A stretch of 53,797 nucleotides of DNA, taken from positions 1 through 53,797 of IMG/VR virus record IMGVR_UViG_3300020469_003502; one strand, 5' to 3'. Origin of the DNA: a virus (taxonomy: Duplodnaviria > Caudoviricetes). The notes below the pieces were generated by a model. It was given only the letters and a program-made list of their open reading frames with translations. It was not told the origin of the DNA and did no database searches. A program made the translations under genes and the position numbers. Positions 37,584 to 52,884 of the stretch are shown here, in pieces. Position 1 is the stretch's first letter; every line of letters starts with the position of its first letter.

Positions 37584-38214
37584 ACATCGTATTCCAAGAA
37601 TAAAAGATAGTTTGCAATTTTTAAAAGAATCAGGGTGTCACATTGAATATTGTTTAGATATCGGAGTACATTCAGGAACTCCGTGGTTACAGTATAGTTT
37701 TCCTAAAGCACATTATGTTTTGATTGAACCAGATACAAATCACAACAAAGCTATACATGAAAACTATAAAAACTATAGCTATGAACTTATAAATGTAGCA
37801 GTTGGCAAAACTAATCAAACACAAGCAAGTTTAAGTTGTGTACACGAAGGCAAAACTTTCGCTATAAAGTCTGATATTGTTGAACTGGATAGTTTGAAAA
37901 TAGTACCACCAAGTAATAGTTTGTGTAAGATAGATGTTGACGGATATGAGTTACAAGTAATAGAAGGTGGTAATAATACATTGGCTAACTTTGATATTCT
38001 TATAATAGAAAGTCAACTAAAAGATTTACATCATATTATATTTGAATGTGAACATACACTAAACTTCGGTCTATGGGATATTGTAAACATGGACTATGAA
38101 TATGGAAACCTACATCAAGTAGACTTAATTTTTAAAAAGAATAACTTTATACTAAATCCTGTTGATGGTTACTTGGATTATCAATTCTTTCGGCAAGGAA
38201 GCGAATTGCAATGA
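37576..38214 (+). CDS. FkbM-family methyltransferase
   Basis: LDIGVHSG, LIEP, LCKIDVDGYELQVIEG, QVDLIF. Confidence 0.85.
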   Translation: MDRHRIPRIKDSLQFLKESGCHIEYCLDIGVHSGTPWLQYSFPKAHYVLIEPDTNHNKAIHENYKNYSYELINVAVGKTNQTQASLSCVHEGKTFAIKSDIVELDSLKIVPPSNSLCKIDVDGYELQVIEGGNNTLANFDILIIESQLKDLHHIIFECEHTLNFGLWDIVNMDYEYGNLHQVDLIFKKNNFILNPVDGYLDYQFFRQGSELQ

Positions 38215-39551
38215 GAGTAACTAAAAAAATGCTGAGAAACGGATACAGCGGTCCTGGTGAACTTGACAATGCAGTTGCAGAGTTTACTGATGGAAAACGC
38301 AACGGTTTAGGTGTGGACGATTCGGTGGCTGGCGAATATAAAGATGACAAGTTACATGGTTATGCTATTAGTAACATTACTAAAAACATCAACAGATATG
38401 AAGATGGCGTAATTGCTGAACAACTGGTCACAAGATATATGAATGGTGACATATGGGTTGGTACAAATGACGTTGGCATACTAATAAGACTAGACGGAAC
38501 AACCAGCTCAGCAAAACCTGTATATGTTGAAAATCCAGTTTATTTTATAAATCAAGACAAACAATTTAAACGCATAAGCATGGTAGATTTAAAAATGCGT
38601 GAGATTGATTTTAGAGGTTGGTATTGTCCAATTTACAAAGCTAACTTTAGCATTAATCCTGTTGGTGAAATTTGTAGTGGTGTGTGTGCTAACATCAGAC
38701 ATGTATCAAAGTTTGATCCGCATTGGAAAACTTTGGACAAGTTAGTACTAAAAGAAAATACAATGTGTAAACTAAAAGCATGCTTTTGTGATGCTGATCT
38801 ACTACAGCCCAAAGCACGAACCAAAGAGCTTTACGATTATTTCAATGAACACAATCAATTTGATGAACACCAATTAGAAGAACTACCTGTAGCCACAGAC
38901 GATGACGAAATACTTGCAATGGGCAGAGGTAGTATGATGATGAGTGAAATACATTTTCATATTGGCTTACGCTGTAACTATGATTGTGCATATTGTCCAG
39001 GTCCAGTATATGATGAAACAGGCAAACTACAAAGTGGTGTGCATGACAATTCAAGTCCGCATATGAGTGTGGAAGAATTTAAACATGGGCTAACACTGCT
39101 TGACCCTCATGTACCTCCAAAGCCTAATCGCAGAGTATATATTACAGGAGGCGAGCCAACACTTAATCCAAAAATAAAAGATCTAGTACAAGTATGTTTG
39201 GACATGGGGTTTGAACCTAGAATAAGTACAAACGGAACAGGCAGTGAAAAGAAGTACAGAGAACTACTTGACATGGATGTGTATTTAGAATTTAGTTTTC
39301 ATGTAGAATTTACTATAGATAAAGTAATACAAAAAGTTACAAATCTTATCAAAGACTATGATCCAGTAAAAATTACTGTAAAATGTATGAGTTTTGAAGA
39401 TACACCTTTTGCACAAAAAGTGCAATACATTATACCCAAAGACAAAGATATATTTTATTATCCGATCTATGGTAGAGATATTGAACACAAATATTACTAT
39501 GATAGATCAGAACAAGAAAAAGAACAAGCAGAGGTGCAGTTTAATGATTAG
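38211..39551 (+). CDS. MORN-like region, auxiliary Fe-S domain and C-terminal radical SAM domain (permuted order)
   Basis: AEFTDGKRNGLG/GEYKDDKLHGY; GWYC...C...CKLKACFC; then CNYDCAYC, TGGEPT, STNG. Confidence 0.8.
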   Translation: MRVTKKMLRNGYSGPGELDNAVAEFTDGKRNGLGVDDSVAGEYKDDKLHGYAISNITKNINRYEDGVIAEQLVTRYMNGDIWVGTNDVGILIRLDGTTSSAKPVYVENPVYFINQDKQFKRISMVDLKMREIDFRGWYCPIYKANFSINPVGEICSGVCANIRHVSKFDPHWKTLDKLVLKENTMCKLKACFCDADLLQPKARTKELYDYFNEHNQFDEHQLEELPVATDDDEILAMGRGSMMMSEIHFHIGLRCNYDCAYCPGPVYDETGKLQSGVHDNSSPHMSVEEFKHGLTLLDPHVPPKPNRRVYITGGEPTLNPKIKDLVQVCLDMGFEPRISTNGTGSEKKYRELLDMDVYLEFSFHVEFTIDKVIQKVTNLIKDYDPVKITVKCMSFEDTPFAQKVQYIIPKDKDIFYYPIYGRDIEHKYYYDRSEQEKEQAEVQFND

Positions 39552-40569
39552 AGAAGATATAAAAAAACTAAACAGACCTCATTGGGCAGGATTGCTTGCT
39601 AGAGTAGAGAAGATAGAATCAGGATATGTTAACTTGGATAGAAATGAAAACCAAGACGAAGTATTGTGTGGTCATATACAAAAAGCAATCAAACATTTCT
39701 TAGATTTATCCAGCTCAATGAAGTATGAAGATTATTATAGATACTATGAGATATTTGCAGATTACTACAACACTACCATGGACAACATATTGATAACAGG
39801 TGGGTGTGACGAAGCAATACGCTTGACATTTGAAGCAACACTAGATAAATCCAAAAAGTTTTTAACTATATCGCCCACTTACAGAGGCAGTGTAACAAAT
39901 GCTATAGATCTGACAGATAATATAATTGAATGCAGTGAAGACGAAGATGACATCACTGCTAGTATTGAACAACACAGACCAGATGTATTTTATATTTGTT
40001 CACCTAATAATCCAAGTGGTAAAGTCTACAGTGCAAAGTTTTTGGATTATATTTGCGGAGCATATCCAAACATGACTGTGCTAATTGATAATACGTACAG
40101 ACATTTTTGTACAGAAGATTATTTTGAATTGTGCAATTATGAAAATTGTTTATTAGCATTTAGTTATAGTAAAAGTTGGGGATTAGCAGGTGCTAGACTG
40201 GGCATACTACAAGGACATGCAAATACAATTAGTGAAATCACAAAGATAAGACCAATAATGAGTGTAAGCAGTATTACACTTAGACTTGCAGAATACTTGC
40301 ACAAACATCATTACATAGTAGAAAAGAGCCTAGAACGCAACAGAGAAGGCATCGAGTTTGCACATAAATATTTTAGTAATTGTAAAATATATAGCGAGCC
40401 AACGATTAATCATGTTGTGTTTGAGCCAACTGAAGATATAATCAGTAGATTAGATTCTCAAAAGATACTGTATGGCAAAGCACCAGAATTTAGTAGCACA
40501 GCTATTAGATTAACTACGTTGCCCAAGGATCAGTTTGAGAAACTTATATGTTTAAATACCTCCAAATAG
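39544..40569 (+). CDS. PLP-dependent class I/II enzyme (HisC/CobD-like)
   Basis: LDRNEN, GCDEAI, CSPNNPSG, SYSKSWGLAGARLG. GAGGTG RBS before ATG 39544. Confidence 0.85.
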   Translation: MIREDIKKLNRPHWAGLLARVEKIESGYVNLDRNENQDEVLCGHIQKAIKHFLDLSSSMKYEDYYRYYEIFADYYNTTMDNILITGGCDEAIRLTFEATLDKSKKFLTISPTYRGSVTNAIDLTDNIIECSEDEDDITASIEQHRPDVFYICSPNNPSGKVYSAKFLDYICGAYPNMTVLIDNTYRHFCTEDYFELCNYENCLLAFSYSKSWGLAGARLGILQGHANTISEITKIRPIMSVSSITLRLAEYLHKHHYIVEKSLERNREGIEFAHKYFSNCKIYSEPTINHVVFEPTEDIISRLDSQKILYGKAPEFSSTAIRLTTLPKDQFEKLICLNTSK

Positions 40570-41339
40570 AAACAACAACATTTTGTAATGCAACATGTTG
40601 GTTTTGTCCAAATCATTTAGTTCCAAAAGAACACATGGAACTTGATTTAATCTATAAAATTATAGATGATACCAGAGACATGGGCATAACGTACAGACCA
40701 TTTGGATTGGGTGAGCCATTGGTTGATACAAGACTGCCAGACATAGCAAGATATATTAAAGAAGATCCTACAGCTAAAGTAGAACTTAACAGTAATGGTG
40801 AACCCATGACACTGAAAACAGAACGAAAGATTGCTCCGTTTGTTGATATAATACGTTTTAGTGTAGATGGTTTTAGTAAAAAAACTTTTGATGAAACCAG
40901 AGGTATTAGTTTTGATAGAGTATATGAAAACGTAACTAGATTTGTAGACAATCATCCTGAGATCGACTGTGAAGTAAGAATGATCAACTTACCAGATACA
41001 AAAGCAGAACAAGAAGCATTCAAAGACTATTGGAATAATGTTAGACCAGGTTGTGCAAAAATTACAGAACTGTATCAACACCCTTGGGAAGACCAAACCA
41101 AAAGTTTAAACTTGCCTTGTAAGAAAGTTGAAGACGAAGCATTCATATACATAGACGGAACAATGTATTTGTGTCCATGGGACTTTGGCAAACGCAATCC
41201 TGTTGGTCGAGTAGACATGCAAACAAGTCCTGTAGATGTATGGAACAATCATCTTTACAACAAATACAAAGGATTACTCAAGGAGGGCAAACGCTGTGAC
41301 ATCGAACTATGTAGCAGATGTAGTGCAGTCTTCACCTGA
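40548..41339 (+). CDS. Radical SAM/SPASM protein
   Basis: CNATCWFC, GLGEP; C-terminal PC...DGTMYLCPWD...VWN...LCSRC. Confidence 0.9.
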   Translation: MFKYLQIETTTFCNATCWFCPNHLVPKEHMELDLIYKIIDDTRDMGITYRPFGLGEPLVDTRLPDIARYIKEDPTAKVELNSNGEPMTLKTERKIAPFVDIIRFSVDGFSKKTFDETRGISFDRVYENVTRFVDNHPEIDCEVRMINLPDTKAEQEAFKDYWNNVRPGCAKITELYQHPWEDQTKSLNLPCKKVEDEAFIYIDGTMYLCPWDFGKRNPVGRVDMQTSPVDVWNNHLYNKYKGLLKEGKRCDIELCSRCSAVFT

Positions 41340-42567: not shown

Positions 42568-43211
42568 TTCTAATCGTTGGTTGTAGTTTCAGCAGTGGCT
42601 GGTTTTCATACAAAAATAAAACTGAAACACTACACAATGACTACTGTTGGTATGACGAACTTGATCAACCATACGAAGTTTACAGTCATCCAGGTGGAGG
42701 TATAATGGCATATGGTCAATGCTTACAACACATTGATCTCAGCAAGTATAGCAAAATACTCATACAGGAAACATTCACTCCAAGAATAGTTATACAACGA
42801 CAGTTGGAATACACAGTTGTACGTAATGGTGTATACCAATGGACAATTGATAATTATTTCAATAACAATATTCATGCTTGGAATAATGTACAAAACAAAC
42901 TGGAAGAACATTTCAAATTTGACTGGCAAAAAGGAATAAGTGATTGGTTTATAGCATTAAATGAACGGGATAGTTGGGATTATCTAAACAGTGCAAGTGC
43001 AAGTCATTTGGATTTATTAGCTAGTCAAACAAGTTTGCCCACATATAGTTTTAGCTTAACTGGAGTTAAATACCCATATAAATATATTAAATATCTAAAT
43101 GTAAATCCTGAGAATTTATTTTACAAGTTGGATTTGCACAATCCGGATTTACATTTTACTCACAAAGGCAATACTGTATTAGGACAGATGATAAAAAATG
43201 AACTACCGTAA
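42564..43211 (+). CDS. SGNH/GDSL-like hydrolase or acyltransferase
   Basis: Block I GCSFSSG; C-terminal DLHFTHKGN. Confidence 0.6.
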   Translation: MILIVGCSFSSGWFSYKNKTETLHNDYCWYDELDQPYEVYSHPGGGIMAYGQCLQHIDLSKYSKILIQETFTPRIVIQRQLEYTVVRNGVYQWTIDNYFNNNIHAWNNVQNKLEEHFKFDWQKGISDWFIALNERDSWDYLNSASASHLDLLASQTSLPTYSFSLTGVKYPYKYIKYLNVNPENLFYKLDLHNPDLHFTHKGNTVLGQMIKNELP

Positions 43212-44043
43212 AACAGCTTTAGTATGTGGTTGTAGCTTCACCGCAGGTTCCTACAGTTGGGATCCTGAGTATATACAATACAATGAAGTACTACAAAGTG
43301 ATGGCACTACTGTTAAACAAGACAATGGATTAGGCAGAGAACGATTGGACATTAATGGAGGTTGGGTTGAACATTTGGATCCACAAGACCATTACACAGT
43401 ATATGCTATCAGTGGCGGAGGTATCGCACAGCATGCCACAGTAGTTGAACACTACTACCAAACAAATCAGCTAGCAGATTTTGATTATATTGTTGTACAA
43501 TGTACTTGGGAACCAAGACTAACTTGGAATACACCAGGTACTATTGAAGAATGTTTTTGGTACGAACATGACTTACAAGCTGAAAACATTGATATGTATC
43601 AAGGCAAAGGCACCAGCAAAAACTTTAATTTTTTAAATGCTGGCAACAAAGCCAACCTCGGTGGCAACTTTAATGATTATCCAGACTATCAGAAGAAACT
43701 TTTTGATAGTATGACCAATACAAACGTAGTTCAGTCGTGTGCAACTCTAATAGATGAGAGATGTAAACAAACTGATACACAATTGTTTTACTTTCCTTGG
43801 GCTGACTGTGGTCCAGAACACAATTTAAAATTTGAAAATGGCACACGACTACAGTTTCCATATCCTTGGGGAGTTGGTACAGGTACTATGGATATATTTT
43901 TAAAAGAAAAATATCACGTGTTTGGTCCAATCGATACAGCAATTAGTAGAGATGGAAGTGATACTTTTATTGGACACTTTAATCGAGAAGGAAATCGTGT
44001 AATAGGTGAACGTGTACGCAAAGAGTTGGATCAATACCTATGA
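43198..44043 (+). CDS. SGNH/GDSL-like hydrolase or acyltransferase, paralog
   Basis: GCSFTAG, SGGG, VVQCTWEPR, GHFNREGN. Confidence 0.6.
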   Translation: MNYRKTALVCGCSFTAGSYSWDPEYIQYNEVLQSDGTTVKQDNGLGRERLDINGGWVEHLDPQDHYTVYAISGGGIAQHATVVEHYYQTNQLADFDYIVVQCTWEPRLTWNTPGTIEECFWYEHDLQAENIDMYQGKGTSKNFNFLNAGNKANLGGNFNDYPDYQKKLFDSMTNTNVVQSCATLIDERCKQTDTQLFYFPWADCGPEHNLKFENGTRLQFPYPWGVGTGTMDIFLKEKYHVFGPIDTAISRDGSDTFIGHFNREGNRVIGERVRKELDQYL

Positions 44044-44558
44044 AAATACTAGTGCTTGCAAATACAACTGAATGGCTAGAACGTTTGCCCAAAGAACATG
44101 AATACGGTGTTTACACAATTGCTTATGGAAACTACTTGAACTATTATGAGCTCTTGACATGGTTACGAATTCATAATATAATTAAACAGTACGAGTATAT
44201 ACTAGTAGAGTCATCATCAACACCAAATTTATGTTTCTATAAACGTACTTGGGTTAATAATTTAATACGTTCACAGAAGGATAATTTTGAATATTGCAGT
44301 GCTGACATTAATTTTTTAGTATGGTCAACAGATGTATTTGATACTGCTCAAGGTGATCAAATACAACATAAGTATGACATGCAATTGACCAGACCACAAA
44401 TAGACTATCTACAAAAATTAGTTGTAAATAATTCAATCGATGCAATAATGAAAGGTAGTCAAATTAGGTTAGAGAGATATTTAAAAAGATTGAACATAGA
44501 ATATAATTTAATAACGGATGTAAACAATGAAAATATTAATATTTGGTCTGCCAGGTAG
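44040..44558 (+). CDS. Hypothetical protein
   Basis: ATGA-coupled ORF; no clear motif. Confidence 0.55.
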   Translation: MKILVLANTTEWLERLPKEHEYGVYTIAYGNYLNYYELLTWLRIHNIIKQYEYILVESSSTPNLCFYKRTWVNNLIRSQKDNFEYCSADINFLVWSTDVFDTAQGDQIQHKYDMQLTRPQIDYLQKLVVNNSIDAIMKGSQIRLERYLKRLNIEYNLITDVNNENINIWSAR

Positions 44559-44952
44559 TGGTAAAACTACACTAGCAAAACCATTTGCAGAACTAATCGG
44601 CGGTATACACATTAATGCTGATACAATAAGAAAAAAATATGACGATTGGGACTTTAGTCCTGATGGACGTATTAGACAAGCACAACGTATGCGACACTTG
44701 GCTGATGGAGTAGAGATGGCTGGCAAAATTGCAGTTGCTGACTTTGTGTGCCCCACCGAACAAGCACGTAAAGAATTTGCACCCGACTATACAGTTTGGA
44801 TGGATACAATTAATGCAGGTAGATTTGCCGACACAAATGCTATATTTGAAAATCCTCCAAACTGCGATTATCATGTAGGCAAATGGTTTACAGATACACC
44901 AGCACAATTAATGCCAGTAGTACAACGTTGGATGGAGAAAAATAATGTTTGA
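44527..44952 (+). CDS. cysC: Adenylylsulfate (APS) kinase-like protein
   Basis: GLPGSGKTT P-loop, NADTIR, DFSPDGRIRQ, DFVCP, FENP. Confidence 0.75.
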   Translation: MKILIFGLPGSGKTTLAKPFAELIGGIHINADTIRKKYDDWDFSPDGRIRQAQRMRHLADGVEMAGKIAVADFVCPTEQARKEFAPDYTVWMDTINAGRFADTNAIFENPPNCDYHVGKWFTDTPAQLMPVVQRWMEKNNV

Positions 44953-45334
44953 TTGGAAGAAACCCACTGCACAAATGCTTGGACGTTGGCAACCTTGGCA
45001 TGATGGACATACTGAATTGTTCAAACGCATACTAGCAGAACACGGACAAGTTTGTATTATGATACGAGATGTATGTGGTGCAGATGCTGGTATGGGAAAC
45101 ACAGACAACCCGTTTGATTATCGTACAGTAAAGAAAAATATCATAGCAGGGTTGGAAGAACATGGTTATAAATGTGGTATTGAATATGAAGTTTTAAGTG
45201 TTCCTAATATTGTAGACATCAGCTATGGCAGAGGTGTAGGATACACATTTACTGAGCATGACTTGGATAAAGATATTCAAGCTATAAGTGCGACAAAGAT
45301 TCGTGCTGAAATGAGAGCTAAAGGCGAACTATGA
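44945..45334 (+). CDS. Small HxGH nucleotidyltransferase (cytidyltransferase-like)
   Basis: GRWQPWHDGH, YGRGVGY, ISATKIR. Confidence 0.8.
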   Translation: MFDWKKPTAQMLGRWQPWHDGHTELFKRILAEHGQVCIMIRDVCGADAGMGNTDNPFDYRTVKKNIIAGLEEHGYKCGIEYEVLSVPNIVDISYGRGVGYTFTEHDLDKDIQAISATKIRAEMRAKGEL

Positions 45335-46818
45335 TAAGTTGGGGTTGGACAGGTATGGCACATGATGCTAGTTTAGCAGTGTTTGATAACAAGCAACTGA
45401 TGTTTGCCTCTCATGCCGAACGTTACAGCAGAATAAAAAATGACAAGCATCTTAATCGTGGTATACTTATAGATGCATTGTACCATGGTGAGCCTGATGA
45501 AATATTCTTTTATGAAAGACCTTGGTTAAAGAAAACAAGACAGTTGTACGCTGGACAGTATAATTTACTTACAAAACCTTCTCCAAGAAGTGTGCTTGGT
45601 GAATTGTATACTAATCCACCACGTGTACGCACAACAACGCATCATCACAGTCATGCCGCCGGAGGTTATTTTACCAGTCCGTTTGATGATGCTGTGATAC
45701 TGTGCATAGACAGTATAGGTGAATGGGAAACAATTAGCATATGGACAGGTGAAGGTAATCAATTAAAGAAACTATGGAGTCAAAGTTATCCTAATAGTAT
45801 AGGCATATGGTACAGTGGTATGACACAGCGTATAGGCTTAAAGCCACAAGAACATGAATATATATTAATGGGTATGGCGGCTGTAGGTGATCCCAACACA
45901 TATTATGATCTAATTAAAAATGATTTTATATTAAAGATGCCCACAATGCAAGACGGTAAAACTGTATTTTTACGCAACTGTCACAGAGGTTGTATGAATT
46001 GGCAACCTTTACTAAACAGTGTACAAAATTATGCTGATATAGCCGCGGCGACTCAGCGTATATACGAAGAAATATTTCTAGGACTAATAAGACACACAGC
46101 ATACTTGACCAATGGTCGTAAAAAGAATCTGGTACTTACCGGAGGTTGTGTATTGAACTGTGTTGCAAATCCAATTGCACATACACATTTTGATAACGTA
46201 TGGATCATGCCCAATCCAGGTGATGCTGGCAGTGCAATTGGTTGTGTGCTTGCTCACAAAAGCGAACACATAGAGTGGCCCGGACCATATTTGGGACACA
46301 ATATACAAGGAGAATATCCAGTTGAAAAAGTTATACATGAACTACAAACCAACAAAATTACTGCCGTTGCGGCAGGTAGGGCTGAGTTTGGTCCTCGGGC
46401 TCTCGGCAACCGTAGTATTCTTGCTGATCCCCGCGGAGATGATGTCAAGTCGCTTGTTAACAGTATTAAACACAGAGAGTCATTCAGACCATTTGCGCCA
46501 GCAATCCTTGAAGAACATGCGTCAGATTATTTCGACGGCTTCACAGGTCCGTACATGCAATACACAGCAACGTGTAAAGACCCTGCTTCGTTTCCAGCAA
46601 TCATCCACTACGATGACACAAGCAGAGTTCAGACAGTATCTAAAGACAATAATACAGGATTCAGAAAACTGCTAGAACGTTGGTATGAACTAACAGGTTG
46701 TCCCATGCTATTGAATACAAGTTTAAACATCAAAGGTGAGCCATTGGTTAATAGTTTAGCTGACGCCGAGCGTTGGAGCGAACAATACGGAGTAGAAGTT
46801 TGCACACCCTCGGTATAG
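45331..46818 (+). CDS. O-carbamoyltransferase (NodU/CmcH/TobZ family)
   Basis: HDAS, ERYSRIKND, HHHSHAA, EYILMG, GDAG, EFGPRALGNRS, RESFRPFAP, LNTSLN. Confidence 0.95.
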   Translation: MISWGWTGMAHDASLAVFDNKQLMFASHAERYSRIKNDKHLNRGILIDALYHGEPDEIFFYERPWLKKTRQLYAGQYNLLTKPSPRSVLGELYTNPPRVRTTTHHHSHAAGGYFTSPFDDAVILCIDSIGEWETISIWTGEGNQLKKLWSQSYPNSIGIWYSGMTQRIGLKPQEHEYILMGMAAVGDPNTYYDLIKNDFILKMPTMQDGKTVFLRNCHRGCMNWQPLLNSVQNYADIAAATQRIYEEIFLGLIRHTAYLTNGRKKNLVLTGGCVLNCVANPIAHTHFDNVWIMPNPGDAGSAIGCVLAHKSEHIEWPGPYLGHNIQGEYPVEKVIHELQTNKITAVAAGRAEFGPRALGNRSILADPRGDDVKSLVNSIKHRESFRPFAPAILEEHASDYFDGFTGPYMQYTATCKDPASFPAIIHYDDTSRVQTVSKDNNTGFRKLLERWYELTGCPMLLNTSLNIKGEPLVNSLADAERWSEQYGVEVCTPSV

Positions 46819-49106
46819 TAGGAGGCGGTCGTTGGGCTAAAATAATTCAACGTGTTGCCAAAAACAATAGAATACAAACACAAATCTACAGTCGCAATCC
46901 TGACTTACCCACAGTGACTAAGTTAGAAGATTTGCGTAGCGGTTACTGTTGGATAGCCAATCAACCTGACGATCATTTTACAAGTGTAGTACACTGTTTG
47001 TCGTTGGATAAACATGTTCTAGTAGAAAAGCCAATAGTAAGAACTGTACTAGAACACAACAAGCTAGTGAAACTTGCCAAACAACTTAACCTAAATTTAA
47101 TTGTTGGCTTGGAATTAGAATATAGTAATACAATAAATGATATCGCAAGTCAAGTAGAAAATCCTAAAAAGATTGAAATAGTATGGAATAGTAAAAATAA
47201 TACTCAACGGCATGGCGAACAATATGTAAGCGATCCTACAATTAGTGTATTTGAAGATATTACACCTCATGTACTAACAGTATTACGCAAGATTGTCAAG
47301 AGCGAAACGGCAGTATTAAAAACAATTATACACAATGAAACTGGTATTGAATATACAATGCAGTTTGGTGATGCAAGCGTTGATGTTACACTAAAGCGTG
47401 ATGTAGAAAATACCAGAACTATAACTGTAGATGGTGTTGAATATGATTTCAGTACTGATGATGGTAAAAGTTTAGATAGACAATTGGAAGCATTTTACCG
47501 AGGCGATACAGTAAACAGTGCAGAGAACACCATCTGGATTACACGATTTATTGAAAAAGGCTGTCGACAACTAATACCACAACACCACGACATAGTTAGA
47601 TTCAATGATACATTTACTGCTAAAGAAATAGTAGCGTTATACACCAGCAAATCAATTATTGATTGTGGACTTGCTGTGAGTAGATATGATCCTCAATTGA
47701 TGATTGCTGTAGAACAAATATACACAATTATAAAATGTTACAGTGCCGATCCATTTGTTACACAACAATATATACAACAACAATTAAATGTCAATCGAAA
47801 AAGATTAATTCAATTGAATCAAGTTATAAAAAACACAGAGTTTATTCAAACTTGTATTACAGATGACATACGCAATCAACAGTACTGGCACAACACTATT
47901 ATACCTCTGAGTCAGAGTGGTACAATCCGTAATGTGCTCAATAATGAATACAGTTATCCGCACAGGGTAGGACTACACATTGGACAAAGCTGTATGTTTT
48001 GGTGTAGTTTTTGTGGTCGCAACATGGATACAAATGCCGCTTACAAAAAGACTGAACTAAAAGCTACAACACCTGACATTGTAAATCTGATAAAAACAGC
48101 CCCCAACGATGATCCCTATAGGTTTTATTTGAGTGGAGGATTGGAAACACTTACTAATCCTGACTTGATGAAATTGATTAGTGCAGGTTATGACAGAGGC
48201 TTTAAGTTTAGTCTGTATACAAATGGATTTATGCTTACTGAAAAGTTTGTTGAAGCTAATCAAGACTTGTTTAAACTTGAAGTATTGCGTATAAGTTTAT
48301 ATGGAAGCAATCAACAGGTATATGAACAAATAACCAAACATAAAAAAGGATTTGAACGTGTTAAACAAAATGCAATTGACTTCTTACGCTATAAGAAAAA
48401 ACACAATAAAAAACTAAGGTTTGGATTTAATTATATTATTTTACCAGGATTAGAACAAGACTTTTTAGAAGTAATTGATCTAATAGAAGAAATAAATCGC
48501 ACAGCAGGTGATCAAATTGATTTTATTACACTCAGAGAAAACTTTCAAACGCCCAATGAACTGGATACGTTTGGTGATAGAACAAAAATAAAACAAGTAT
48601 TCGCAGAGGTTGAAAAACGTAGAAACAGTGAGCATTTAAACCGTTTGCACATAGATTATGGTTATGCACTAAACGCATTAAGCAGAGGCATTGATGCTCC
48701 CACTATGCATTGTATTACAGAAGAACAGATGCTACCCAAAGGCTTTCCACAAGTAGACTTGGTAGTAGATGCATATGGTTTGGTTTATTTGTGCAGAGAA
48801 GCAGGGTTCTTAGACAGACCAGGTAATGATAGATACATAATTGGTAAGTTATCTGAAACTGACAGTTTAGAAAGTATAGTACGCAATTGGATACGCAACG
48901 GAAAACCTGTAGATATTCAAAAAGGTGATACAGAATTTATGGACAGCTATGAACACATAATTAGTTTGATGCTGAACCAATCGAACAGTGACCAACAACA
49001 TGGCATACCAGAACAATTAGGGCCAATACTTGCAAAAGCACAAGCTACGGATACAGTCAGTGTGCAAGCATTTTATCAAGGAGATCCAAATGCCAAAGTC
49101 AATTGA
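46800..49106 (+). CDS. desII: Fusion of a Gfo/Idh/MocA oxidoreductase and a DesII-like radical SAM NDP-4-amino-4,6-dideoxyglucose ammonia-lyase
   Basis: N-terminal GIVGGGRWA and HVLVEKP. C-terminal YWHNTIIPL, CMFWCSFC, SGGLETLTNP, RISLYG, DYGYAL and VYLCREAGF match DesII as recalled. TTG 46800 follows GGAG. Confidence 0.85.
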   Translation: MHTLGIVGGGRWAKIIQRVAKNNRIQTQIYSRNPDLPTVTKLEDLRSGYCWIANQPDDHFTSVVHCLSLDKHVLVEKPIVRTVLEHNKLVKLAKQLNLNLIVGLELEYSNTINDIASQVENPKKIEIVWNSKNNTQRHGEQYVSDPTISVFEDITPHVLTVLRKIVKSETAVLKTIIHNETGIEYTMQFGDASVDVTLKRDVENTRTITVDGVEYDFSTDDGKSLDRQLEAFYRGDTVNSAENTIWITRFIEKGCRQLIPQHHDIVRFNDTFTAKEIVALYTSKSIIDCGLAVSRYDPQLMIAVEQIYTIIKCYSADPFVTQQYIQQQLNVNRKRLIQLNQVIKNTEFIQTCITDDIRNQQYWHNTIIPLSQSGTIRNVLNNEYSYPHRVGLHIGQSCMFWCSFCGRNMDTNAAYKKTELKATTPDIVNLIKTAPNDDPYRFYLSGGLETLTNPDLMKLISAGYDRGFKFSLYTNGFMLTEKFVEANQDLFKLEVLRISLYGSNQQVYEQITKHKKGFERVKQNAIDFLRYKKKHNKKLRFGFNYIILPGLEQDFLEVIDLIEEINRTAGDQIDFITLRENFQTPNELDTFGDRTKIKQVFAEVEKRRNSEHLNRLHIDYGYALNALSRGIDAPTMHCITEEQMLPKGFPQVDLVVDAYGLVYLCREAGFLDRPGNDRYIIGKLSETDSLESIVRNWIRNGKPVDIQKGDTEFMDSYEHIISLMLNQSNSDQQHGIPEQLGPILAKAQATDTVSVQAFYQGDPNAKVN

Positions 49107-49836
49107 AGACTATTGTCGCAATCTAACATACGGAACTGACACAGTATTTTGGTGCATGGGCGATGAAACAGTATTACCATTGACAATGAACTGGGTTGAA
49201 AACTGTAAACAGTTGGGTATAAATTTATTATATGTAGCATTGGATCTGCAGAGTTATCATGTTATGCAGAGCCGTGTGCCTACAGTACACATACCACAAG
49301 GCAACCACCATGTGTTTGTGTATAAATTTATTGTAGGACAACAGATCATGCAGTGTGGATTAAATTGGTTTTATACTGATGTTGATTGTGTAGCAAGACG
49401 AGATTTTACTGTTGGCATAAGAGAAATATTTAAAACAAAAACTGATATGGTGTGTCAAAGTGTAAAACAATATGCATGGTTAGGTGATCCAATTGATGCA
49501 CACAGTGAATACAACTGTGGTACAGGTATGTTTGGTATGAGATGCAAAACAGAAAATATTGCAATATGTGAAACAGATTATCTATATGCAAACGGCTATG
49601 ACAGTACCTGCCAAAAATTTGCCAACACACACCTAAAACATTTATCGAACAACTATATTACACTATTAGATCCTATACAGTTTCCCACTGGACATAACTT
49701 TGATATTAATGCTGACTGGAAAGTATTTCATGTAACTGGTAAGTATGCTTATGAGGATTGGGATAATACAAAAGAATACTTGGGTGATAGTGCTAAGATA
49801 GCAAGTTTAAAGCAGTTAGGACTTTGGTACCAATGA
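49090..49836 (+). CDS. Nucleotide-diphospho-sugar transferase (GT77-like)
   Basis: NW..NC, YVALD, FYTDVD, CGTGMF, LLDPIQFP.G, FH. Confidence 0.7.
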   Translation: MPKSIEDYCRNLTYGTDTVFWCMGDETVLPLTMNWVENCKQLGINLLYVALDLQSYHVMQSRVPTVHIPQGNHHVFVYKFIVGQQIMQCGLNWFYTDVDCVARRDFTVGIREIFKTKTDMVCQSVKQYAWLGDPIDAHSEYNCGTGMFGMRCKTENIAICETDYLYANGYDSTCQKFANTHLKHLSNNYITLLDPIQFPTGHNFDINADWKVFHVTGKYAYEDWDNTKEYLGDSAKIASLKQLGLWYQ

Positions 49837-50777
49837 CAATACTAGTAACAGGAGCCGCAGGCTTATTGGGCACAGAACTGTGTAGGCAACTGCTAGCACA
49901 AGGTGAAACTGTATATGCAGTTGATAACTTTTATACTGGTTCGAAATCAAATATAGAACAATTCAAAGGAAGAAATGGGTTTTACTTTGTTGAGCATGAT
50001 ATCAGAGATCCTTACCAATGGAACAATCCCATGGGCATGTTTGATCCACTCAAACAAGTGTATAATCTAGCTTGTCCAGCTAGTCCTGTACACTATCAAA
50101 CAGATCCATGGAATACACTAATGACAAATATTGATGGTGTACGCAATATGCTTGAATTATGTAAACAACACAATTTAAGAATGTTACAAGCAAGTACCAG
50201 CGAAGTATATGGCGACCCACTTGAAAATCCACAAAATGAAAAATATTGGGGTAATGTAAATCCGTTAGGTCCACGTGCTTGTTATGATGAAGGCAAGCGT
50301 GTAGCAGAAACCATGTGTACTATTAGCAGTGTAGATACTTGTATTGCTAGAATATTCAATACATTTGGTCCACACATGGCATTGAATGATGGTAGAGCTG
50401 TTAGTAACTTTATTATACAAGCAATACAAAATCAACCAATTACTGTACACGGCGATGGCAAACAAACTAGAAGTTTTTGTTATGTAACTGACACTGTGAA
50501 AGGACTAATTGCTCTTATGAACAGTGATAACAAAGGACCAATTAATATTGGTAATATAAAAGAAGTAACACTACTACAACTAGCAAAAGAAATAATAGAA
50601 CTAGCTGACAGCGACAGTGAAATTATCCATACAGACAGTGCAGTAGATGATCCACACCAACGTTGCCCAGATATATATCATGCAATAACTAAACTGGGTT
50701 GGGCACCCGATGTTGACAGACGAACTGGACTTAAATATACTATAGACTATGTGAGGAAACAACTATGCGATGGTTAA
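49833..50777 (+). CDS. uxs: UDP-glucuronic acid decarboxylase (UDP-xylose synthase)
   Basis: TGAAGLLG, LACPASPVHYQ, STSEVYGDP, YWGNVNP.GPRACYDEGKR, DGRAVSNF, QTRSFCYV. Confidence 0.92.
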   Translation: MTILVTGAAGLLGTELCRQLLAQGETVYAVDNFYTGSKSNIEQFKGRNGFYFVEHDIRDPYQWNNPMGMFDPLKQVYNLACPASPVHYQTDPWNTLMTNIDGVRNMLELCKQHNLRMLQASTSEVYGDPLENPQNEKYWGNVNPLGPRACYDEGKRVAETMCTISSVDTCIARIFNTFGPHMALNDGRAVSNFIIQAIQNQPITVHGDGKQTRSFCYVTDTVKGLIALMNSDNKGPINIGNIKEVTLLQLAKEIIELADSDSEIIHTDSAVDDPHQRCPDIYHAITKLGWAPDVDRRTGLKYTIDYVRKQLCDG

Positions 50778-50878
50778 TTAATTTTATATTATCACCTTGG
50801 CGCAAGTATAAACTATACAAGTGGCGTAAACAAAAAATAAAAGAATTAAAAGACAAAGATCCTTTTATATACGAGTAG
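50765..50878 (+). CDS. Small basic 37-aa protein, below the ORF-track cutoff
   Basis: GAGG RBS; MRWLINFILSPWRKYKLYKWRKQKIKELKDKDPFIYE; fills the gap before the next promoter exactly. Confidence 0.65.
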   Translation: MRWLINFILSPWRKYKLYKWRKQKIKELKDKDPFIYE

Positions 50879-50907
50879 TTGACAAACAGTTGAATGTTTG
50901 CTATAAT
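50879..50907 (+). promoter_or_regulatory. Perfect sigma70 consensus promoter
   Basis: TTGACA 50879-50884, 17-bp spacer, TATAAT 50902-50907. Confidence 0.85.
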
Positions 50908-50928
50908 AAAATAATTACGGAGTCTAAT

Positions 50929-51633
50929 TTGTTAGATGTTGTACAAATCAGTTATCATGAAACGTTTGCTGATGATAACTTTGAGATATTAAAGATGTTT
51001 GCACCTCATGCCAAGCGTGTACAGGGTGTTGAAGGCATCTTTGCGGCACACAAAGCCGCGGCTGAAATAGCAGAGACCAGTCATTTTTATGTAATTGATG
51101 CTGATGCAGTTATGGACGAAGAGTTTAGTTTTAGATTTAAACCTGAATCAAACAAGTTTGTATATGAAACTGTACCAGAGACAGACTGTGTATTTGTGTG
51201 GCGTAGTCGAAATCCCATCAATGATTTATTATATGGCTATGGCGGAGCAAAACTGTTTCCTAGAAAGAAACTATTAGAAGCAGAGGATTGGAATGTAGAT
51301 ATGACCACTACAATAGGTTGTACATTTGTTCCCAAATTTCAAATTAGTAATATTACAGCATTCAACACCAGCGAGTTTGAAACTTGGAAAAGTGCTTTCA
51401 GAGAGTGTACCAAGTTAGCCAGTAGTATAATACCAAATGGTGATAGTATAGATAATATATATAGATTAAAAGTTTGGCAAGAGCGAGGTGCTAAAAGACC
51501 ATATGGTGAGTATTGTATACTAGGTGCAAAACAAGGTGCTGACTTTGGCACAGCATATAGAAACAAACCACATGTACTTACTAAAATAAATGACTTTGAT
51601 TGGTTAAAGGAAACATTCAATGACGCAGTCTAA
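50929..51633 (+). CDS. GT-A glycosyltransferase-like protein, paralog of 28410..29390
   Basis: DVVQISYHE, AHKAAA, VIDADA, YGYGG.KL, WKSAFREC. TTG 50929 follows GGAG, downstream of the promoter. Confidence 0.7.
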   Translation: MLDVVQISYHETFADDNFEILKMFAPHAKRVQGVEGIFAAHKAAAEIAETSHFYVIDADAVMDEEFSFRFKPESNKFVYETVPETDCVFVWRSRNPINDLLYGYGGAKLFPRKKLLEAEDWNVDMTTTIGCTFVPKFQISNITAFNTSEFETWKSAFRECTKLASSIIPNGDSIDNIYRLKVWQERGAKRPYGEYCILGAKQGADFGTAYRNKPHVLTKINDFDWLKETFNDAV

Positions 51634-52666
51634 TAATGATTATAAAGATTTTAAAAATGTTCCAGATGATGAACAGTATAAGCTATATCATGAAAGAATT
51701 ACTAAAGATTCTAAAGCTACTATGTCAGAGGATGGAACTCATATGGTTAATTCTGAGTTAGGAAAAAATCTACATTGGATGCATGGACTAGAAGAGTACT
51801 TGGAATATATTGACCACAAACAAAAGGAAAAATATCATGTATTAAAACGTGCAGTGATGTATGGAAATATATGGTATATAAAAGAAATAATCAGAGATGA
51901 AATTTATAGGGGCGACACAGACCTAACAGATGAATTTTTAAATATTATTCTTGCACACTACACAGGCTATGAACACATAAATCACAGAAAAGCACTACAG
52001 TATGTGGCTCACTGTATTGATAGTGACTATATAAGAAAAATTAGCAGTTGGGCTATAACTTGGCAGTATAGAGCTAACCTCAATGACCACTTTAGTAGAG
52101 GTCAAATGAAAAGTAAATTATGGCTATTAGAAGAAATGAAAAATATTATACCAAATCTTTATCTGGGCACAGTTGTACACTATGGTGGCTGGTATGCTAC
52201 AGTAGCAAAACATTTATTTGAACAATTTAAAATAAGACAGTATTACAATTTAGAGCTTGATCCTGATTGCATAGAAATTGCAGATGCCTTTAACTATGAA
52301 CAGTACTATGATAAATGGCGTTATAAAACTGTTGAAAAAGATTGTGGTGTTGTACAATACAATGCCAATGGTGAGTTTGATGTTGAAATTGAAAATGCAA
52401 ACAAGCAAAAAATAGTAACTACTGTTAAACCTGACATTATAATTAACACAAGTTGTGAACACATGAATGAAGATTGGTTCCATAATTTACCTGATGGTAT
52501 GTTGGTATGTTTGCAAACAAATGATTACTTTAGCAACGAACAGCATGTAAATTGTGTAAGCGGTATAAATGAAGCAAAAGCCAAGTACCCAATGAAAGAA
52601 GTGTTGTATGAAGGTGAGATAGATACACACTTATACAATAGGTTTATGTTAATAGGTGAAAAATGA
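51620..52666 (+). CDS. Class I SAM-dependent methyltransferase-like protein
   Basis: GQMKSKLWL, HYGGWY, LELDP, DIIINTSCEH. Confidence 0.6.
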   Translation: MTQSNNDYKDFKNVPDDEQYKLYHERITKDSKATMSEDGTHMVNSELGKNLHWMHGLEEYLEYIDHKQKEKYHVLKRAVMYGNIWYIKEIIRDEIYRGDTDLTDEFLNIILAHYTGYEHINHRKALQYVAHCIDSDYIRKISSWAITWQYRANLNDHFSRGQMKSKLWLLEEMKNIIPNLYLGTVVHYGGWYATVAKHLFEQFKIRQYYNLELDPDCIEIADAFNYEQYYDKWRYKTVEKDCGVVQYNANGEFDVEIENANKQKIVTTVKPDIIINTSCEHMNEDWFHNLPDGMLVCLQTNDYFSNEQHVNCVSGINEAKAKYPMKEVLYEGEIDTHLYNRFMLIGEK

Positions 52667-52884
52667 TAGAACAACTATCATTGCGTGAATTGCAAAAAGA
52701 ATCAGCAAGGGCATTGGCTACAATGCAAGCAACAAATAATAACATACATATGTTTAATAAGAAAGCACATCATAATAGTCAATTATGGTACAGTGCAGTA
52801 ATAGAATGGTATGTAAATACGTATGGAGATTTACCTAGCAAAATAAGTCCAGGTAAAGAAATCAAATTGATTATGGAGGATTAA
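52663..52884 (+). CDS. Hypothetical protein
   Basis: ATGA-coupled 73-aa ORF with AGGTG RBS. Confidence 0.6.
   Translation: MIEQLSLRELQKESARALATMQATNNNIHMFNKKAHHNSQLWYSAVIEWYVNTYGDLPSKISPGKEIKLIMED

What the first reader, a model, noticed from the sequence alone, without database searches (positions are those of the whole stretch)
46800..49106. DesII-type radical SAM deaminase fused to a Gfo/Idh/MocA ketoreductase in a phage
Seen: one 768-aa frame with an N-terminal Rossmann/EKP domain and a C-terminal domain carrying a collinear series of DesII motifs. Known: Streptomyces DesII converts TDP-4-amino-4,6-dideoxyglucose (viosamine) to TDP-3-keto-4,6-dideoxyglucose for macrolide desosamine, and Gfo/Idh/MocA enzymes such as KijD10 and SpnN are NDP-sugar 3-ketoreductases. 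Inference: a bifunctional enzyme making an NDP-4,6-dideoxyhexose (chalcose-type if later O-methylated). I know of no described viral DesII or of this fusion.
Basis: partly seen in the sequence, partly recalled or inferred. Interest (0 to 1): 0.88.

Follow-up and report, generated by a model that had tools for sequence, protein, structure and literature searches.

The report
Phage DesII-like radical SAM/oxidoreductase fusion
A marine jumbo phage carries one gene that joins a sugar oxidoreductase to a relative of the radical enzyme DesII, probably to remove the C4 substituent of an activated sugar; the same join is common but unstudied in bacteria.

Summary
One uninterrupted frame (best start TTG 46800, 768 aa; stop 49106) encodes a Gfo/Idh/MocA domain followed by a complete DesII-like radical SAM enzyme. 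It matches solved DesII at E 1.8e-76, and the model superposes at TM 0.92. Every residue named for DesII's cluster, its SAM motifs (two conservative changes in the beta6 pair), and its E408 and D456 is kept. Contigs assembled separately from runs of other studies give the identical frame.

- The fusion is not peculiar to this phage. It makes up 48 of 139 non-redundant family members, spans several bacterial phyla and includes cultured actinomycetes. Some Pelagibacteraceae (SAR11) genomes carry the two parts as adjacent genes.
- Stand-alone DesII-like genes are also frequent in viral contigs, often flanked by two DegT aminotransferases.
- The phage clade scores below NCBI's DesII cut-off (360 vs 450 bits) and sits apart from macrolide DesII.
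- Neither it nor its relatives' records encode a DegT aminotransferase, RmlA or RmlB. The neighbours are instead a UDP-glucuronate decarboxylase, a HisC-like aminotransferase and further radical SAM genes.

Best reading: a two-step module, radical elimination at C4 followed by C3 ketoreduction. The substrate is unresolved. I found no paper describing the fusion or a viral DesII.

The parts
46800..49106 (+). Fused gene, 768 aa from TTG 46800 (alternative TTG 46773 gives 777 aa); the stop codon is 49104-49106
   Evidence: Identical in contigs of runs from other studies.
46789..46792 (+). GGAG ribosome-binding candidate, 7 nt before TTG 46800
   Evidence: Read. The same arrangement with GTG occurs in L002.
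46800..47642 (+). Gfo/Idh/MocA oxidoreductase module (residues 10 to about 290 of the 777-aa frame). GxGxxA lies at 46821-46838, EKP at 47025-47033 and D162..H166 at 47256-47270.
   Evidence: PF01408. The profile of 12 N-domains hits 84 Gfo/Idh/MocA PDB sequences. Foldseek TMt 0.65-0.69. Invariant residues.
47643..49103 (+). Complete DesII-like radical SAM enzyme (residues about 291-777): helical N-domain, radical SAM core and C-terminal domain
   Evidence: TIGR04426 E 1.4e-107. 8hzv E 1.8e-76. Foldseek TMt 0.92, rmsd 2.3 A over 484 columns.
47991..48014 (+). CX3CX2C motif (C407, C411, C414) that binds the [4Fe-4S] cluster
   Evidence: Aligned to DesII C141/C145/C148. Present in 139 of 139 family members.
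48135..48146 (+). GGLE SAM-binding motif (G455-E458)
   Evidence: Aligned to DesII G187-E190. G, G and E are each in 139 of 139.
48798..48800 (+). E676, the counterpart of DesII E408 (proposed general base)
   Evidence: E in 134 of 139 family members.
48942..48944 (+). D724, the counterpart of DesII D456 (the D456A mutant is inactive)
   Evidence: D in 139 of 139.
45331..46818 (+). Carbamoyltransferase gene directly upstream; it overlaps the fusion's start
   Evidence: PF02543 and PF16861. Syntenic in L002, L003 and L032.
49030..49836 (+). Nucleotide-diphospho-sugar transferase-like gene directly downstream
   Evidence: PF03407, 23.5 bits against a cut-off of 22. It follows the fusion in L002-L005 and L032.
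49824..50777 (+). UDP-glucuronate decarboxylase (UDP-xylose synthase type)
   Evidence: PDB 4gll/2b69, E 1e-96. Kept one gene after the fusion in L002-L005 and L032.
38211..41339 (+). Three genes that sit immediately before the fusion in L004/L005: a radical SAM gene (38211-39551), a HisC-like class I/II aminotransferase (39394-40569) and a small radical SAM/SPASM gene (40548-41339)
   Evidence: Pfam, NCBIfam and synteny.

Best explanation
The gene encodes a bifunctional sugar-tailoring enzyme that removes the substituent at C4 of a nucleotide-activated sugar in two steps.

**Step 1, the C-terminal DesII-like module.**
- A [4Fe-4S] cluster held by C407/C411/C414 cleaves SAM.
- The 5'-deoxyadenosyl radical takes the hydrogen from C3.
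- With E676/D724 as proton acceptors, the neighbouring C4 leaving group is eliminated. In DesII this group is an ammonium.
- One-electron reduction gives a 3-keto-4-deoxy sugar.

**Step 2, the N-terminal Gfo/Idh/MocA module.** It uses NAD(P)H, with K86 and D162/H166, to reduce the labile 3-ketone to a hydroxyl. The product is an NDP-4-deoxy sugar (4,6-dideoxy if the substrate is a 6-deoxyhexose). The glycosyltransferase-like gene that follows may pass it on.

**Shown by sequence and structure comparison:** both folds, all cofactor and catalytic motifs, and an intact fusion.

**Inferred:** the order of the two steps, the direction of the redox step, and the substrate. I put about 60:40 on a 4-amino leaving group against a 4-hydroxyl one. 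I give only about 0.25 to TDP- or UDP-viosamine specifically.
For: **DesII likeness.**
- Near full-length match to solved DesII and TMt 0.92 for the AlphaFold model, which has pLDDT 91.4 and pTM 0.90.
- The residues the DesII structure paper names are kept: the cluster cysteines, GGLE, R/S/Y of the ribose motif, E408 and D456 (main text of PMC11434129; mapping).
- The cluster cysteines, the G, G and E of GGLE, the R and S of the ribose motif and the D456 position are each present in 139 of 139 non-redundant family members. The ribose-motif Y is in 137 and the E408 position in 134.

**Oxidoreductase domain looks active.**
- E85, K86, P87, D162 and H166 are invariant in 56 fused proteins that are only 27-87% identical to the window's.

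**Repeated linkage of the two parts.**
- Single ORFs occur in at least five bacterial phyla plus phages.
- The two parts are separate adjacent genes in either order in 6 Pelagibacteraceae loci and 1 viral locus.
- On the radical SAM tree the fused state needs at least 5 changes.

**The oxidoreductase appears to replace the second aminotransferase.**
- DesII-like genes linked to a Gfo-like part never have two DegT genes within 3 kb: 0 of 22 loci.
- Stand-alone genes do in 25 of 88 loci, including DegT-DesII-DegT in jumbo-phage contigs.
- This fits a reductase taking the 3-keto product in place of a DesV-type transaminase.

**Some fused loci do have a DesI-like partner.** In 4 of the 9 bacterial fused loci (10 with the phage-like L032) a single DegT gene sits directly upstream. 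One is an Omnitrophota glycan cluster of glycosyltransferases and methyltransferases.

**Precedent.** AprD4, a radical SAM dehydratase, works with the NADPH-dependent reductase AprD3 (passages of PMC5461906).
Against: **No upstream pathway seen.**
- No DegT aminotransferase in the window or in any of 8 phage-type or Gfo-linked viral records. One of these, which holds L031, is rated 95% complete. The five with the single-ORF fusion are rated 6-24% complete.
- No RmlA-type transferase.
- No RmlB above cut-off.
- So the source of a 4-amino-4,6-dideoxy sugar is not visible.

**Family membership is incomplete.**
- The DesII score, 360 bits, is under NCBI's equivalog cut-off of 450.
- The phage clade is separate from characterised-type actinomycete DesII.

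**Direction of the redox step is open.** The best solved relatives of the N-domain are C3 dehydrogenases (GnnA best, E 6.9e-17), not the ketoreductase KijD10 (E 5e-9).

**Structural oddity.** The phage-type N-domain lacks about 25 residues after the second strand of the Rossmann fold that the bacterial fused forms have. Cofactor binding is therefore assumed, not shown.

**Statistics.** The DegT contrast rests on related loci and is not an independent-sample test.
Confidence: 0.55

Rival explanations
1. Same two-step logic but without an amine. The radical SAM module acts as a diol dehydratase on a 4-hydroxy NDP-sugar, for example a UDP-pentose made by the neighbouring UDP-glucuronate decarboxylase. 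The fused reductase then finishes a direct C4 deoxygenation, as AprD4/AprD3 do at C3' of paromamine.
For: - No DegT, RmlA or RmlB in the window or in related records.
- A UXS-type gene (E 1e-96 to human UXS1) is kept one gene after the fusion in L002-L005 and L032.
- 18 of 22 Gfo-linked loci have no DegT within 3 kb.
- According to the introduction of PMC11434129, DesII partly dehydrates TDP-D-fucose.
- AprD4/AprD3 provide a precedent.
Against: - DesII oxidises rather than dehydrates TDP-quinovose, and the computed barrier for dehydration is high.
- E676 and D724 are conserved exactly as in the deaminase, so nothing in the sequence signals a change of leaving group.
- 4 of the 9 bacterial fused loci do have an adjacent DegT.
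- The phage records with the single-ORF fusion are only 6-24% complete.
Confidence: 0.2
2. The Gfo/Idh/MocA module works upstream as a C3 dehydrogenase, as GnnA, WlbA, KanD2 and GenD2 do. The conserved HisC-like aminotransferase then makes a 3-amino sugar. The radical SAM module performs a DesII-like elimination at the mirror position, or some other radical step. On this reading the fusion joins non-consecutive steps.
For: - The nearest solved relatives of the N-domain are sugar C3 dehydrogenases that work with aminotransferases.
- A class I/II aminotransferase sits two genes before the fusion in L004/L005.
- It recurs near the split pair in Pelagibacteraceae loci L051 and L061.
Against: - HisC-type aminotransferases are not known to act on NDP-sugars (my recollection, not tested here).
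- Fusions usually join consecutive steps.
- The DesII active-site residues are unchanged.
- The similarities within Gfo/Idh/MocA are weak (11-19% identity) and do not fix the direction or the substrate.
Confidence: 0.12
3. The substrate is not an NDP-sugar at all. It could be, for example, an aminocyclitol, a glycoside or a modified nucleotide in a phage DNA or virion modification pathway. The two domains would then carry out DesII-like and redox chemistry on that scaffold.
For: - The surrounding 25 kb holds six further radical SAM genes, a sulfotransferase-like gene, an FkbM methyltransferase, a carbamoyltransferase, kinase-like and nucleotidyltransferase-like genes, and a weak QueC-like ORF.
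- No classical NDP-hexose genes were found.
Against: - The adjacent genes are a UDP-glucuronate decarboxylase and a nucleotide-sugar transferase-like protein.
- The fused gene in Omnitrophota sits among glycosyltransferases.
- The only characterised family member acts on a TDP-sugar.
Confidence: 0.08

Closest known systems
DesII of Streptomyces venezuelae (dTDP-4-amino-4,6-dideoxy-D-glucose ammonia-lyase; PDB 8HZV/8HZY; TIGR04426)
   Same: - All three domains are present. The match covers chain residues 56-482, and the model superposes at TMt 0.92 and rmsd 2.3 A with 32% identity.
- CX3CX2C, GGLE, the ribose motif R/S/Y, and the counterparts of E408 and D456 are all kept.
   Different: - It is fused to an oxidoreductase of about 280 aa.
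- It scores 360 bits against the 450-bit equivalog cut-off.
- It sits in a separate all-fused clade.
- D323/Y324 are replaced by N590/F591.
- The records seen hold no DesI-, DesIII-, DesIV- or DesV-type neighbours.
- It is carried by a jumbo phage.
Gfo/Idh/MocA sugar C3 oxidoreductases: GnnA (7BVJ), GenD2 (6NOR), KanD2 (6JW6), WlbA (3OA0), KijD10 (3RBV)
   Same: - Two-domain fold, TMt 0.60-0.68.
- Profile E-values from 6.9e-17 (GnnA) to 5e-9 (KijD10).
- The GxGxxA, EKP and D..H motifs are kept.
   Different: - Only 13-19% identity for these five.
- The domain is shorter, and the phage type lacks about 25 residues after strand 2.
- It never stands alone here, running straight into the DesII helical domain.
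- The direction of the redox step is unknown.
AprD4/AprD3 (radical SAM diol dehydratase with an NADPH-dependent reductase partner, apramycin pathway)
   Same: The logic is the same: radical elimination next to a hydroxyl-bearing carbon gives a ketone, which a nicotinamide-dependent partner reduces, for a net deoxygenation (PMC5461906, passages read).
   Different: - They are separate proteins acting on a pseudodisaccharide.
- Homology of either to the window's domains was not tested here.
DesI-DesII-DesV route to 3-amino-3,4,6-trideoxyhexose (desosamine), and the chalcose route in which a 3-ketoreductase follows DesII-type chemistry (the latter recalled, not checked in a call)
   Same: Stand-alone viral and actinomycete relatives show the DegT-DesII-DegT arrangement. 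The fused form looks like the branch in which the 3-ketone is reduced rather than transaminated.
   Different: In the phage clade neither aminotransferase of that route is seen. The nucleotide carrier may be UDP rather than TDP, given the neighbouring UXS-type gene.

Membership tests
DesII (TIGR04426, radical SAM NDP-aminosugar ammonia-lyase) | CX3CX2C motif binding the [4Fe-4S] cluster | tested here: met
   C407/C411/C414 align with C141/C145/C148. Present in 139 of 139 family members.
DesII (TIGR04426, radical SAM NDP-aminosugar ammonia-lyase) | SAM-binding motifs: GGE (G187-E190), ribose motif (R238, S240, Y242) and beta6 (D323, Y324) | tested here: met
   GGLE 455-458 and R506/S508/Y510 are identical. 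Beta6 is N590/F591. The paper describes backbone and hydrophobic contacts there, so the change is conservative. N occurs in 11 of 139 and F in 50 of 139 members.
DesII (TIGR04426, radical SAM NDP-aminosugar ammonia-lyase) | Active-site acids E408 (proposed base) and D456 (D456A inactive) | tested here: met
   E676 and D724. E in 134 of 139 and D in 139 of 139. The mutant data come from the paper's main text; its supplement was not seen.
DesII (TIGR04426, radical SAM NDP-aminosugar ammonia-lyase) | Three-domain fold (helical N-domain, radical SAM core, C-terminal hairpin and helices) | tested here: met
   AlphaFold model with pLDDT 91.4. Foldseek to 8hzv gives TMt 0.92 over 484 columns for a 477-residue target.
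DesII (TIGR04426, radical SAM NDP-aminosugar ammonia-lyase) | Score above NCBIfam's curated equivalog cut-off (450 bits) | tested here: not met
   360.4 bits. For comparison:
- Streptomyces L077: 834 bits.
- Fused Solihabitans L041: 627 bits (passes).
- Viral L015, flanked by two DegT genes: 348 bits (also fails).

The failure therefore tracks distance from actinomycetes.
DesII (TIGR04426, radical SAM NDP-aminosugar ammonia-lyase) | Placement inside the clade of the characterised enzyme | tested here: not met
   The window lies in an all-fused clade of 11 rows (SH-aLRT 97). Actinomycete stand-alone DesII forms a separate 28-row clade (99). This is a quick search with a midpoint root.
DesII (TIGR04426, radical SAM NDP-aminosugar ammonia-lyase) | Pathway context: DesI-type DegT 4-aminotransferase, NDP-glucose synthase and 4,6-dehydratase | tested here: not met
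   - DegT: 0 of 1 (window) and 0 of 8 related records.
- PF00483: 0 of 1 and 0 of 5.
- TIGR01181 above cut-off: 0 of 5.

The five single-ORF fused records are 6-24% complete, so absence from the whole genomes is not shown.
DesII (TIGR04426, radical SAM NDP-aminosugar ammonia-lyase) | SAM-dependent deamination of an NDP-4-amino-4,6-dideoxyhexose | not testable with these tools
   Needs an anaerobic enzyme assay.
Gfo/Idh/MocA oxidoreductases | N-terminal Rossmann domain with a glycine-rich dinucleotide motif, above the Pfam threshold | tested here: met
   PF01408 scores 34.9 bits against 24. G17-x-G19-x-x-A22 is present; G17, G19, R20 and W21 are in at least 90% of 56 fused proteins. The phage type lacks about 25 residues after strand 2.
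Gfo/Idh/MocA oxidoreductases | EKP motif and the downstream Asp/His pair (their catalytic role is recalled from the family literature) | tested here: met
   E85, K86, P87, D162 and H166 are invariant in 56 fused proteins.
Gfo/Idh/MocA oxidoreductases | C-terminal alpha/beta substrate-binding domain | tested here: met
   No Pfam hit for it. However, the model aligns over 290-340 columns with whole Gfo/Idh/MocA chains at TMt 0.54-0.69, and the profile covers 7bvj residues 25-303.
Gfo/Idh/MocA oxidoreductases | NDP-sugar 3-ketoreductase activity (KijD10 type) | not testable with these tools
   KijD10 matches at only E 5e-9, weaker than the match to C3 dehydrogenases. The direction cannot be read from the sequence.
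AprD4/AprD3-type radical dehydratase plus reductase pair | Homology to AprD4 or AprD3 | not tested
   Used only as a mechanistic analogy.

The most novel reading that the evidence does not exclude
The fused enzyme may be the core of an undescribed sugar-tailoring pathway shared by marine jumbo phages and SAR11-type bacteria. The recurring gene set is a UDP-glucuronate decarboxylase or SDR, a HisC-like (not DegT) aminotransferase, a small radical SAM/SPASM enzyme, the DesII-like enzyme and the Gfo-like reductase. On this reading the pathway starts from a UDP-pentose or UDP-hexose. The DesII-like domain removes the C4 substituent without the classical DesI step, giving a 4-deoxy sugar not yet known from phage or SAR11 glycans.
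Probability: 0.2. Interest if true: 0.8.

Novelty: new variant of a known kind. Interest (0 to 1): 0.6.

Why it matters
- **Enzymology.** DesII is a textbook radical SAM enzyme known from macrolide antibiotic pathways. These data show that the antibiotic enzymes are one branch of a much wider family. About a third of the non-redundant members are fused to, and others sit beside, a Gfo/Idh/MocA oxidoreductase. A natural fusion gives enzymologists a self-contained system for asking how the reactive 3-keto product is handed on. It also bears on what decides deamination versus dehydration versus oxidation.
- **Phage biology.** A marine jumbo phage invests in seven radical SAM genes and a set of sugar-modifying enzymes next to its baseplate and fibre genes. 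This points to elaborate glycan chemistry, on the virion or on the infected cell, that nobody has looked at.
- **Annotation.** Automatic annotation already names these proteins 'dTDP-4-amino-4,6-dideoxy-D-glucose ammonia-lyase'. For the phage clade that name is not backed by context.

Tried and rejected
- **Close-relative search in viral contigs.** The search for related loci with the single protein confirmed none of 16 pattern matches. The alignment query worked.
- **INPHARED.** No match for the protein or for 9 kb of structural genes by megablast.
- **PHROGs.** No family for the fused protein.
- **RNA evidence.** No RNA holder listed.
- **Read laying.** One X12 contig joins 48305 to 48648, skipping 342 nt, with only 21 letters on the shorter side. 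I treated it as unreliable. The pieces listed for X13 leave 47180-47194 and 48307-48399 uncovered, which proves nothing.
- **Literature.**
  - Two searches failed on term format. The first was redone.
  - A search of DesII with viral, virus, metagenome and marine was too loose to be useful.
  - A search by PDB codes did not give entry names.
  - DesII with O-antigen terms gave nothing relevant.
  - The chalcose search matched 'desIII' rather than DesII, so the chalcose 3-ketoreductase precedent stays a recollection.
  - 'radical SAM' + 'jumbo phage' + 'marine' gave 4 papers. None appeared to be about this gene from the listing, and I did not read them.
- **Rejected: assembly chimera or frameshifted pair.**
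- **Rejected: T4-like cyanophage.** The baseplate wedge points instead to the PA5oct / Atu_ph07 / SCTP-2 type of jumbo phage.
- **Rejected: C3 epimerase.** On this idea the radical SAM part oxidises C3 and the Gfo part reduces it from the other face. It seems unlikely, about 0.05, because a Gfo/Idh/MocA enzyme can oxidise C3 by itself.
- **ORF calling.** Greedy ORF picking in high-GC loci was unreliable. I used six-frame family searches and all-ORF phmmer searches instead.

Full report
**1. The observation**

The window is a whole IMG/VR virus record of 53,797 bp. It is linear, and CheckV rates it about 10% complete. One open frame runs from 46773 to 49106 on the + strand.

- GGAG lies 7 nt upstream.
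- Relative L002 has GTG at the same place behind the same GGAG.
- L004 and L005 start just before the glycine motif.
- Residues 1-9 of the longer form are disordered in the model.

I number residues on the 777-aa frame; subtract 9 for the 768-aa protein.

Pfam finds GFO_IDH_MocA (residues 39-112) and Radical_SAM (403-570). NCBIfam finds rSAM_desII at E 1.4e-107 over residues 311-747, covering profile positions 29-462 of 468. The score is 360 bits, below the 450-bit equivalog cut-off.

The frame is not an assembly artefact:
- 58 of the 120 protein clusters listed carry both Pfam domains in one protein of 740-905 aa.
- Contigs from runs of other studies cover 46658-49300 and 46658-49220 without a single difference or gap. 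No insertions or deletions were reported in four runs.

**2. The DesII-like half**

The sequence matches the solved S. venezuelae DesII (8HZV/8HZY) at E 1.8e-76 over chain residues 56-482. I read the main text of the structure paper (PMC11434129; supplement not seen). I mapped its named residues through the alignment.

| DesII residue(s) | Role given in the paper | Window counterpart |
|---|---|---|
| C141/C145/C148 | cluster ligands | C407/C411/C414 |
| G187-E190 | GGE motif | G455-G456-L457-E458 |
| R238/S240/Y242 | ribose motif | R506/S508/Y510 |
| D323/Y324 | beta6, backbone and hydrophobic contacts | N590/F591 |
| E408 | proposed base | E676 |
| D456 | D456A inactive | D724 |

I aligned 139 family members, left after dropping copies at least 80% identical from 242. 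The cysteines, the G, G and E of the GGE motif, R506, S508 and D724 are present in all 139. E676 is present in 134.

An AlphaFold model built on 56 fused homologues has pLDDT 91.4 and pTM 0.90. It superposes on DesII at TMt 0.92 and rmsd 2.3 A over 484 columns, which is the whole enzyme including its helical N-domain.

**3. The oxidoreductase half**

A profile of 12 N-domains hits 84 Gfo/Idh/MocA PDB sequences:
- The best is 7bvj at E 6.9e-17, covering residues 25-303.
- 6nor scores E 7.3e-15 and 6jw6 scores E 1e-14.
- The sugar 3-ketoreductase 3rbv scores E 5e-9.

Foldseek supplies the entry titles GnnA (UDP-GlcNAc 3-dehydrogenase), GenD2, KanD2 and WlbA, with TMt 0.60-0.68.

E85, K86, P87, D162 and H166 are invariant across 56 fused proteins that share only 27-87% identity with the window's. 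The domain therefore looks catalytically competent.

The phage type lacks about 25 residues after the second Rossmann strand that the bacterial fused forms have.

**4. Distribution**

- An exhaustive HMMER search of 1.84 billion representatives gave 1047 hits at E 1e-3 or better, and 53 at 1e-30 or better.
- In IMG/VR, 30 of 49 pattern matches were confirmed. Five loci (L002-L006) carry the single-ORF fusion. L026 has a separate Gfo-like gene directly upstream. The rest are stand-alone genes, some on contigs of 192-345 kb.
- In species-representative genomes, 123 of 124 matches were confirmed and the best 80 were kept.
  - Single-ORF fusions with a detectable N-domain occur in L032, a 'Gammaproteobacteria MAG' contig that is collinear with the window and so of the same phage type.
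  - They also occur in Gloeocapsa, Omnitrophota, Actinomycetota and Acidimicrobiales MAGs, in Solihabitans fulvus (two copies), in Lentzea sp. E54 and in Nocardia sp.
  - An Acidobacteriota MAG has the same as two overlapping ORFs.
- Six Pelagibacteraceae loci have a Gfo-like gene of about 240 aa immediately before or after the DesII-like gene.
- On a maximum-likelihood tree of the radical SAM domain (quick search, SH-aLRT, midpoint root):
  - The window sits in an all-fused clade of 11 rows (support 97).
  - Stand-alone actinomycete DesII forms a 28-row clade (99) nested among fused actinomycete forms.
  - The fused label needs 11 changes on the best tree, and at least 5 are forced by well-supported branches.
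- The fused Solihabitans protein passes the DesII equivalog cut-off at 627 bits. A viral stand-alone gene flanked by two DegT genes does not, at 348 bits. The cut-off therefore tracks distance from actinomycetes rather than function.

**5. Context**

The phage is a jumbo myovirus:
- Baseplate genes are present.
- The wedge protein is 41% identical to that of Pseudomonas phage PA5oct (287 kb) and 38% to Agrobacterium phage Atu_ph07 (490 kb).

Downstream of a 3756-aa ORF lies a block of about 30 kb of modification genes. It holds seven radical SAM genes including the fusion. It also holds sulfotransferase-like, FkbM methyltransferase, HisC-like aminotransferase, kinase-like, nucleotidyltransferase-like and carbamoyltransferase genes.

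Around the fusion, relatives L002, L003 and L032 are collinear with the window. In L004 and L005 the order tightens to: radical SAM, HisC-like aminotransferase, small radical SAM/SPASM, fusion, PF03407 transferase-like gene, SDR. The SDR is a UDP-glucuronate decarboxylase (E 1e-96 to human UXS1).

Classical partners are missing:
- DegT: 0 in the window and 0 of 8 related records.
- PF00483: 0 of 1 and 0 of 5.
- RmlB above cut-off: 0 of 5.

By contrast, 19 of 23 viral records with stand-alone genes have DegT. The table counts DegT genes within 3 kb of the DesII-like gene.

| Architecture and source | Loci | Two DegT | One DegT | None |
|---|---|---|---|---|
| Fused, viral | 5 | 0 | 0 | 5 |
| Fused, genome | 10 | 0 | 4 | 6 |
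| Adjacent | 7 | 0 | 0 | 7 |
| Stand-alone, viral | 24 | 11 | 7 | 6 |
| Stand-alone, genome | 64 | 14 | 31 | 19 |

These loci are related to each other, so the contrast is descriptive and not a statistical test.

Three further contexts:
- In Omnitrophota the fused gene follows a DegT gene inside a cluster of glycosyltransferases and methyltransferases.
- Pelagibacteraceae locus L051 has, in order: a Gfo-like gene, the DesII-like gene, two unknown genes, an SDR, a radical SAM/SPASM gene and a class I/II aminotransferase. This is the same set as the phage module.
- L061 repeats the aminotransferase and SDR parts of that set.

**6. Reading**

The most economical explanation is a two-step C4-deoxygenation unit. 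DesII-type radical elimination gives a 3-keto-4-deoxy sugar, and the fused NAD(P)H enzyme reduces it.

Three things support this:
- The two parts are linked repeatedly, by fusion and by adjacency in either order.
- A second, DesV-like aminotransferase is absent wherever the Gfo part is present.
- AprD4/AprD3 provide a precedent (PMC5461906, passages).

What stays open is the leaving group (amine or hydroxyl), the nucleotide carrier and the sugar. The UXS neighbour and the missing DegT, RmlA and RmlB genes make a UDP-pentose or host-supplied substrate a serious alternative to viosamine. The direction of the redox step is not shown.

**7. Novelty**

I found no paper on a viral DesII or on the fusion (loosely 44, 70, 71). 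The library lacks many subscription journals. The fused proteins are in public databases under automatic names such as 'Gfo/Idh/MocA family oxidoreductase' or 'dTDP-4-amino-4,6-dideoxy-D-glucose ammonia-lyase'.

This is therefore a new, uncharacterised architectural variant of a known enzyme family. It is widespread and is not a phage invention. The phage instance stands out for its context.

Noticed in passing
window 29383-49106: Seven radical SAM genes lie within 20 kb of one phage contig: 29383-30735, 30735-32033, 32993-34030, 38211-39551, 40548-41339, 41236-42567 and the fusion. The first two pass NCBIfam's 'N-terminal twitch domain radical SAM' model (362 and 384 bits against a cut-off of 170), with the SPASM/twitch part ahead of the radical SAM core. 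Their functions are unknown.
   Followed up: partly
L013-L016, L020, L021, L028 (IMG/VR contigs up to 345 kb, up to 99% complete): Stand-alone DesII-like genes are flanked on both sides by DegT aminotransferases and preceded by an SDR. This is a DesI-DesII-DesV-like set, which suggests that some jumbo phages make a 3-amino-3,4,6-trideoxyhexose.
   Followed up: partly
window 46799/46800: In runs X10 and X13 some contigs follow the window up to 46799 and then continue with unrelated sequence that begins with ATG. Some strains therefore seem to carry a different gene at the place of the fusion, with the breakpoint exactly at its start.
   Followed up: no
window 11273-22543: A single 3756-aa ORF directly follows the baseplate wedge gene. 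It is presumably a giant fibre or structural protein and was not analysed.
   Followed up: no
window 52885-53559: A 224-aa ORF has an SGGADS PP-loop-like motif and a C-terminal cysteine cluster. Its C-terminus matches QueC weakly (E 2.3e-4, far below cut-off).
   Followed up: no
L032 (contig of a MAG labelled Gammaproteobacteria bacterium MED685): This 108-kb contig is collinear with window 36114-52884 at 39-94% protein identity. It is a phage contig binned into a bacterial MAG, which is at best a weak hint to the host.
   Followed up: partly
L051 489-7707 and L061 (Pelagibacteraceae single-cell genomes): The split Gfo-like and DesII-like pair lies with an SDR, a small radical SAM/SPASM gene and a class I/II aminotransferase. 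This is the same gene set as the phage module.
   Followed up: partly
window 44527-45334 and 728-1312: Small P-loop kinase-like (APS-kinase/AAA_33) and nucleotidyltransferase-like (NMNAT/cytidylyltransferase) genes may activate a non-classical sugar or cofactor.
   Followed up: no
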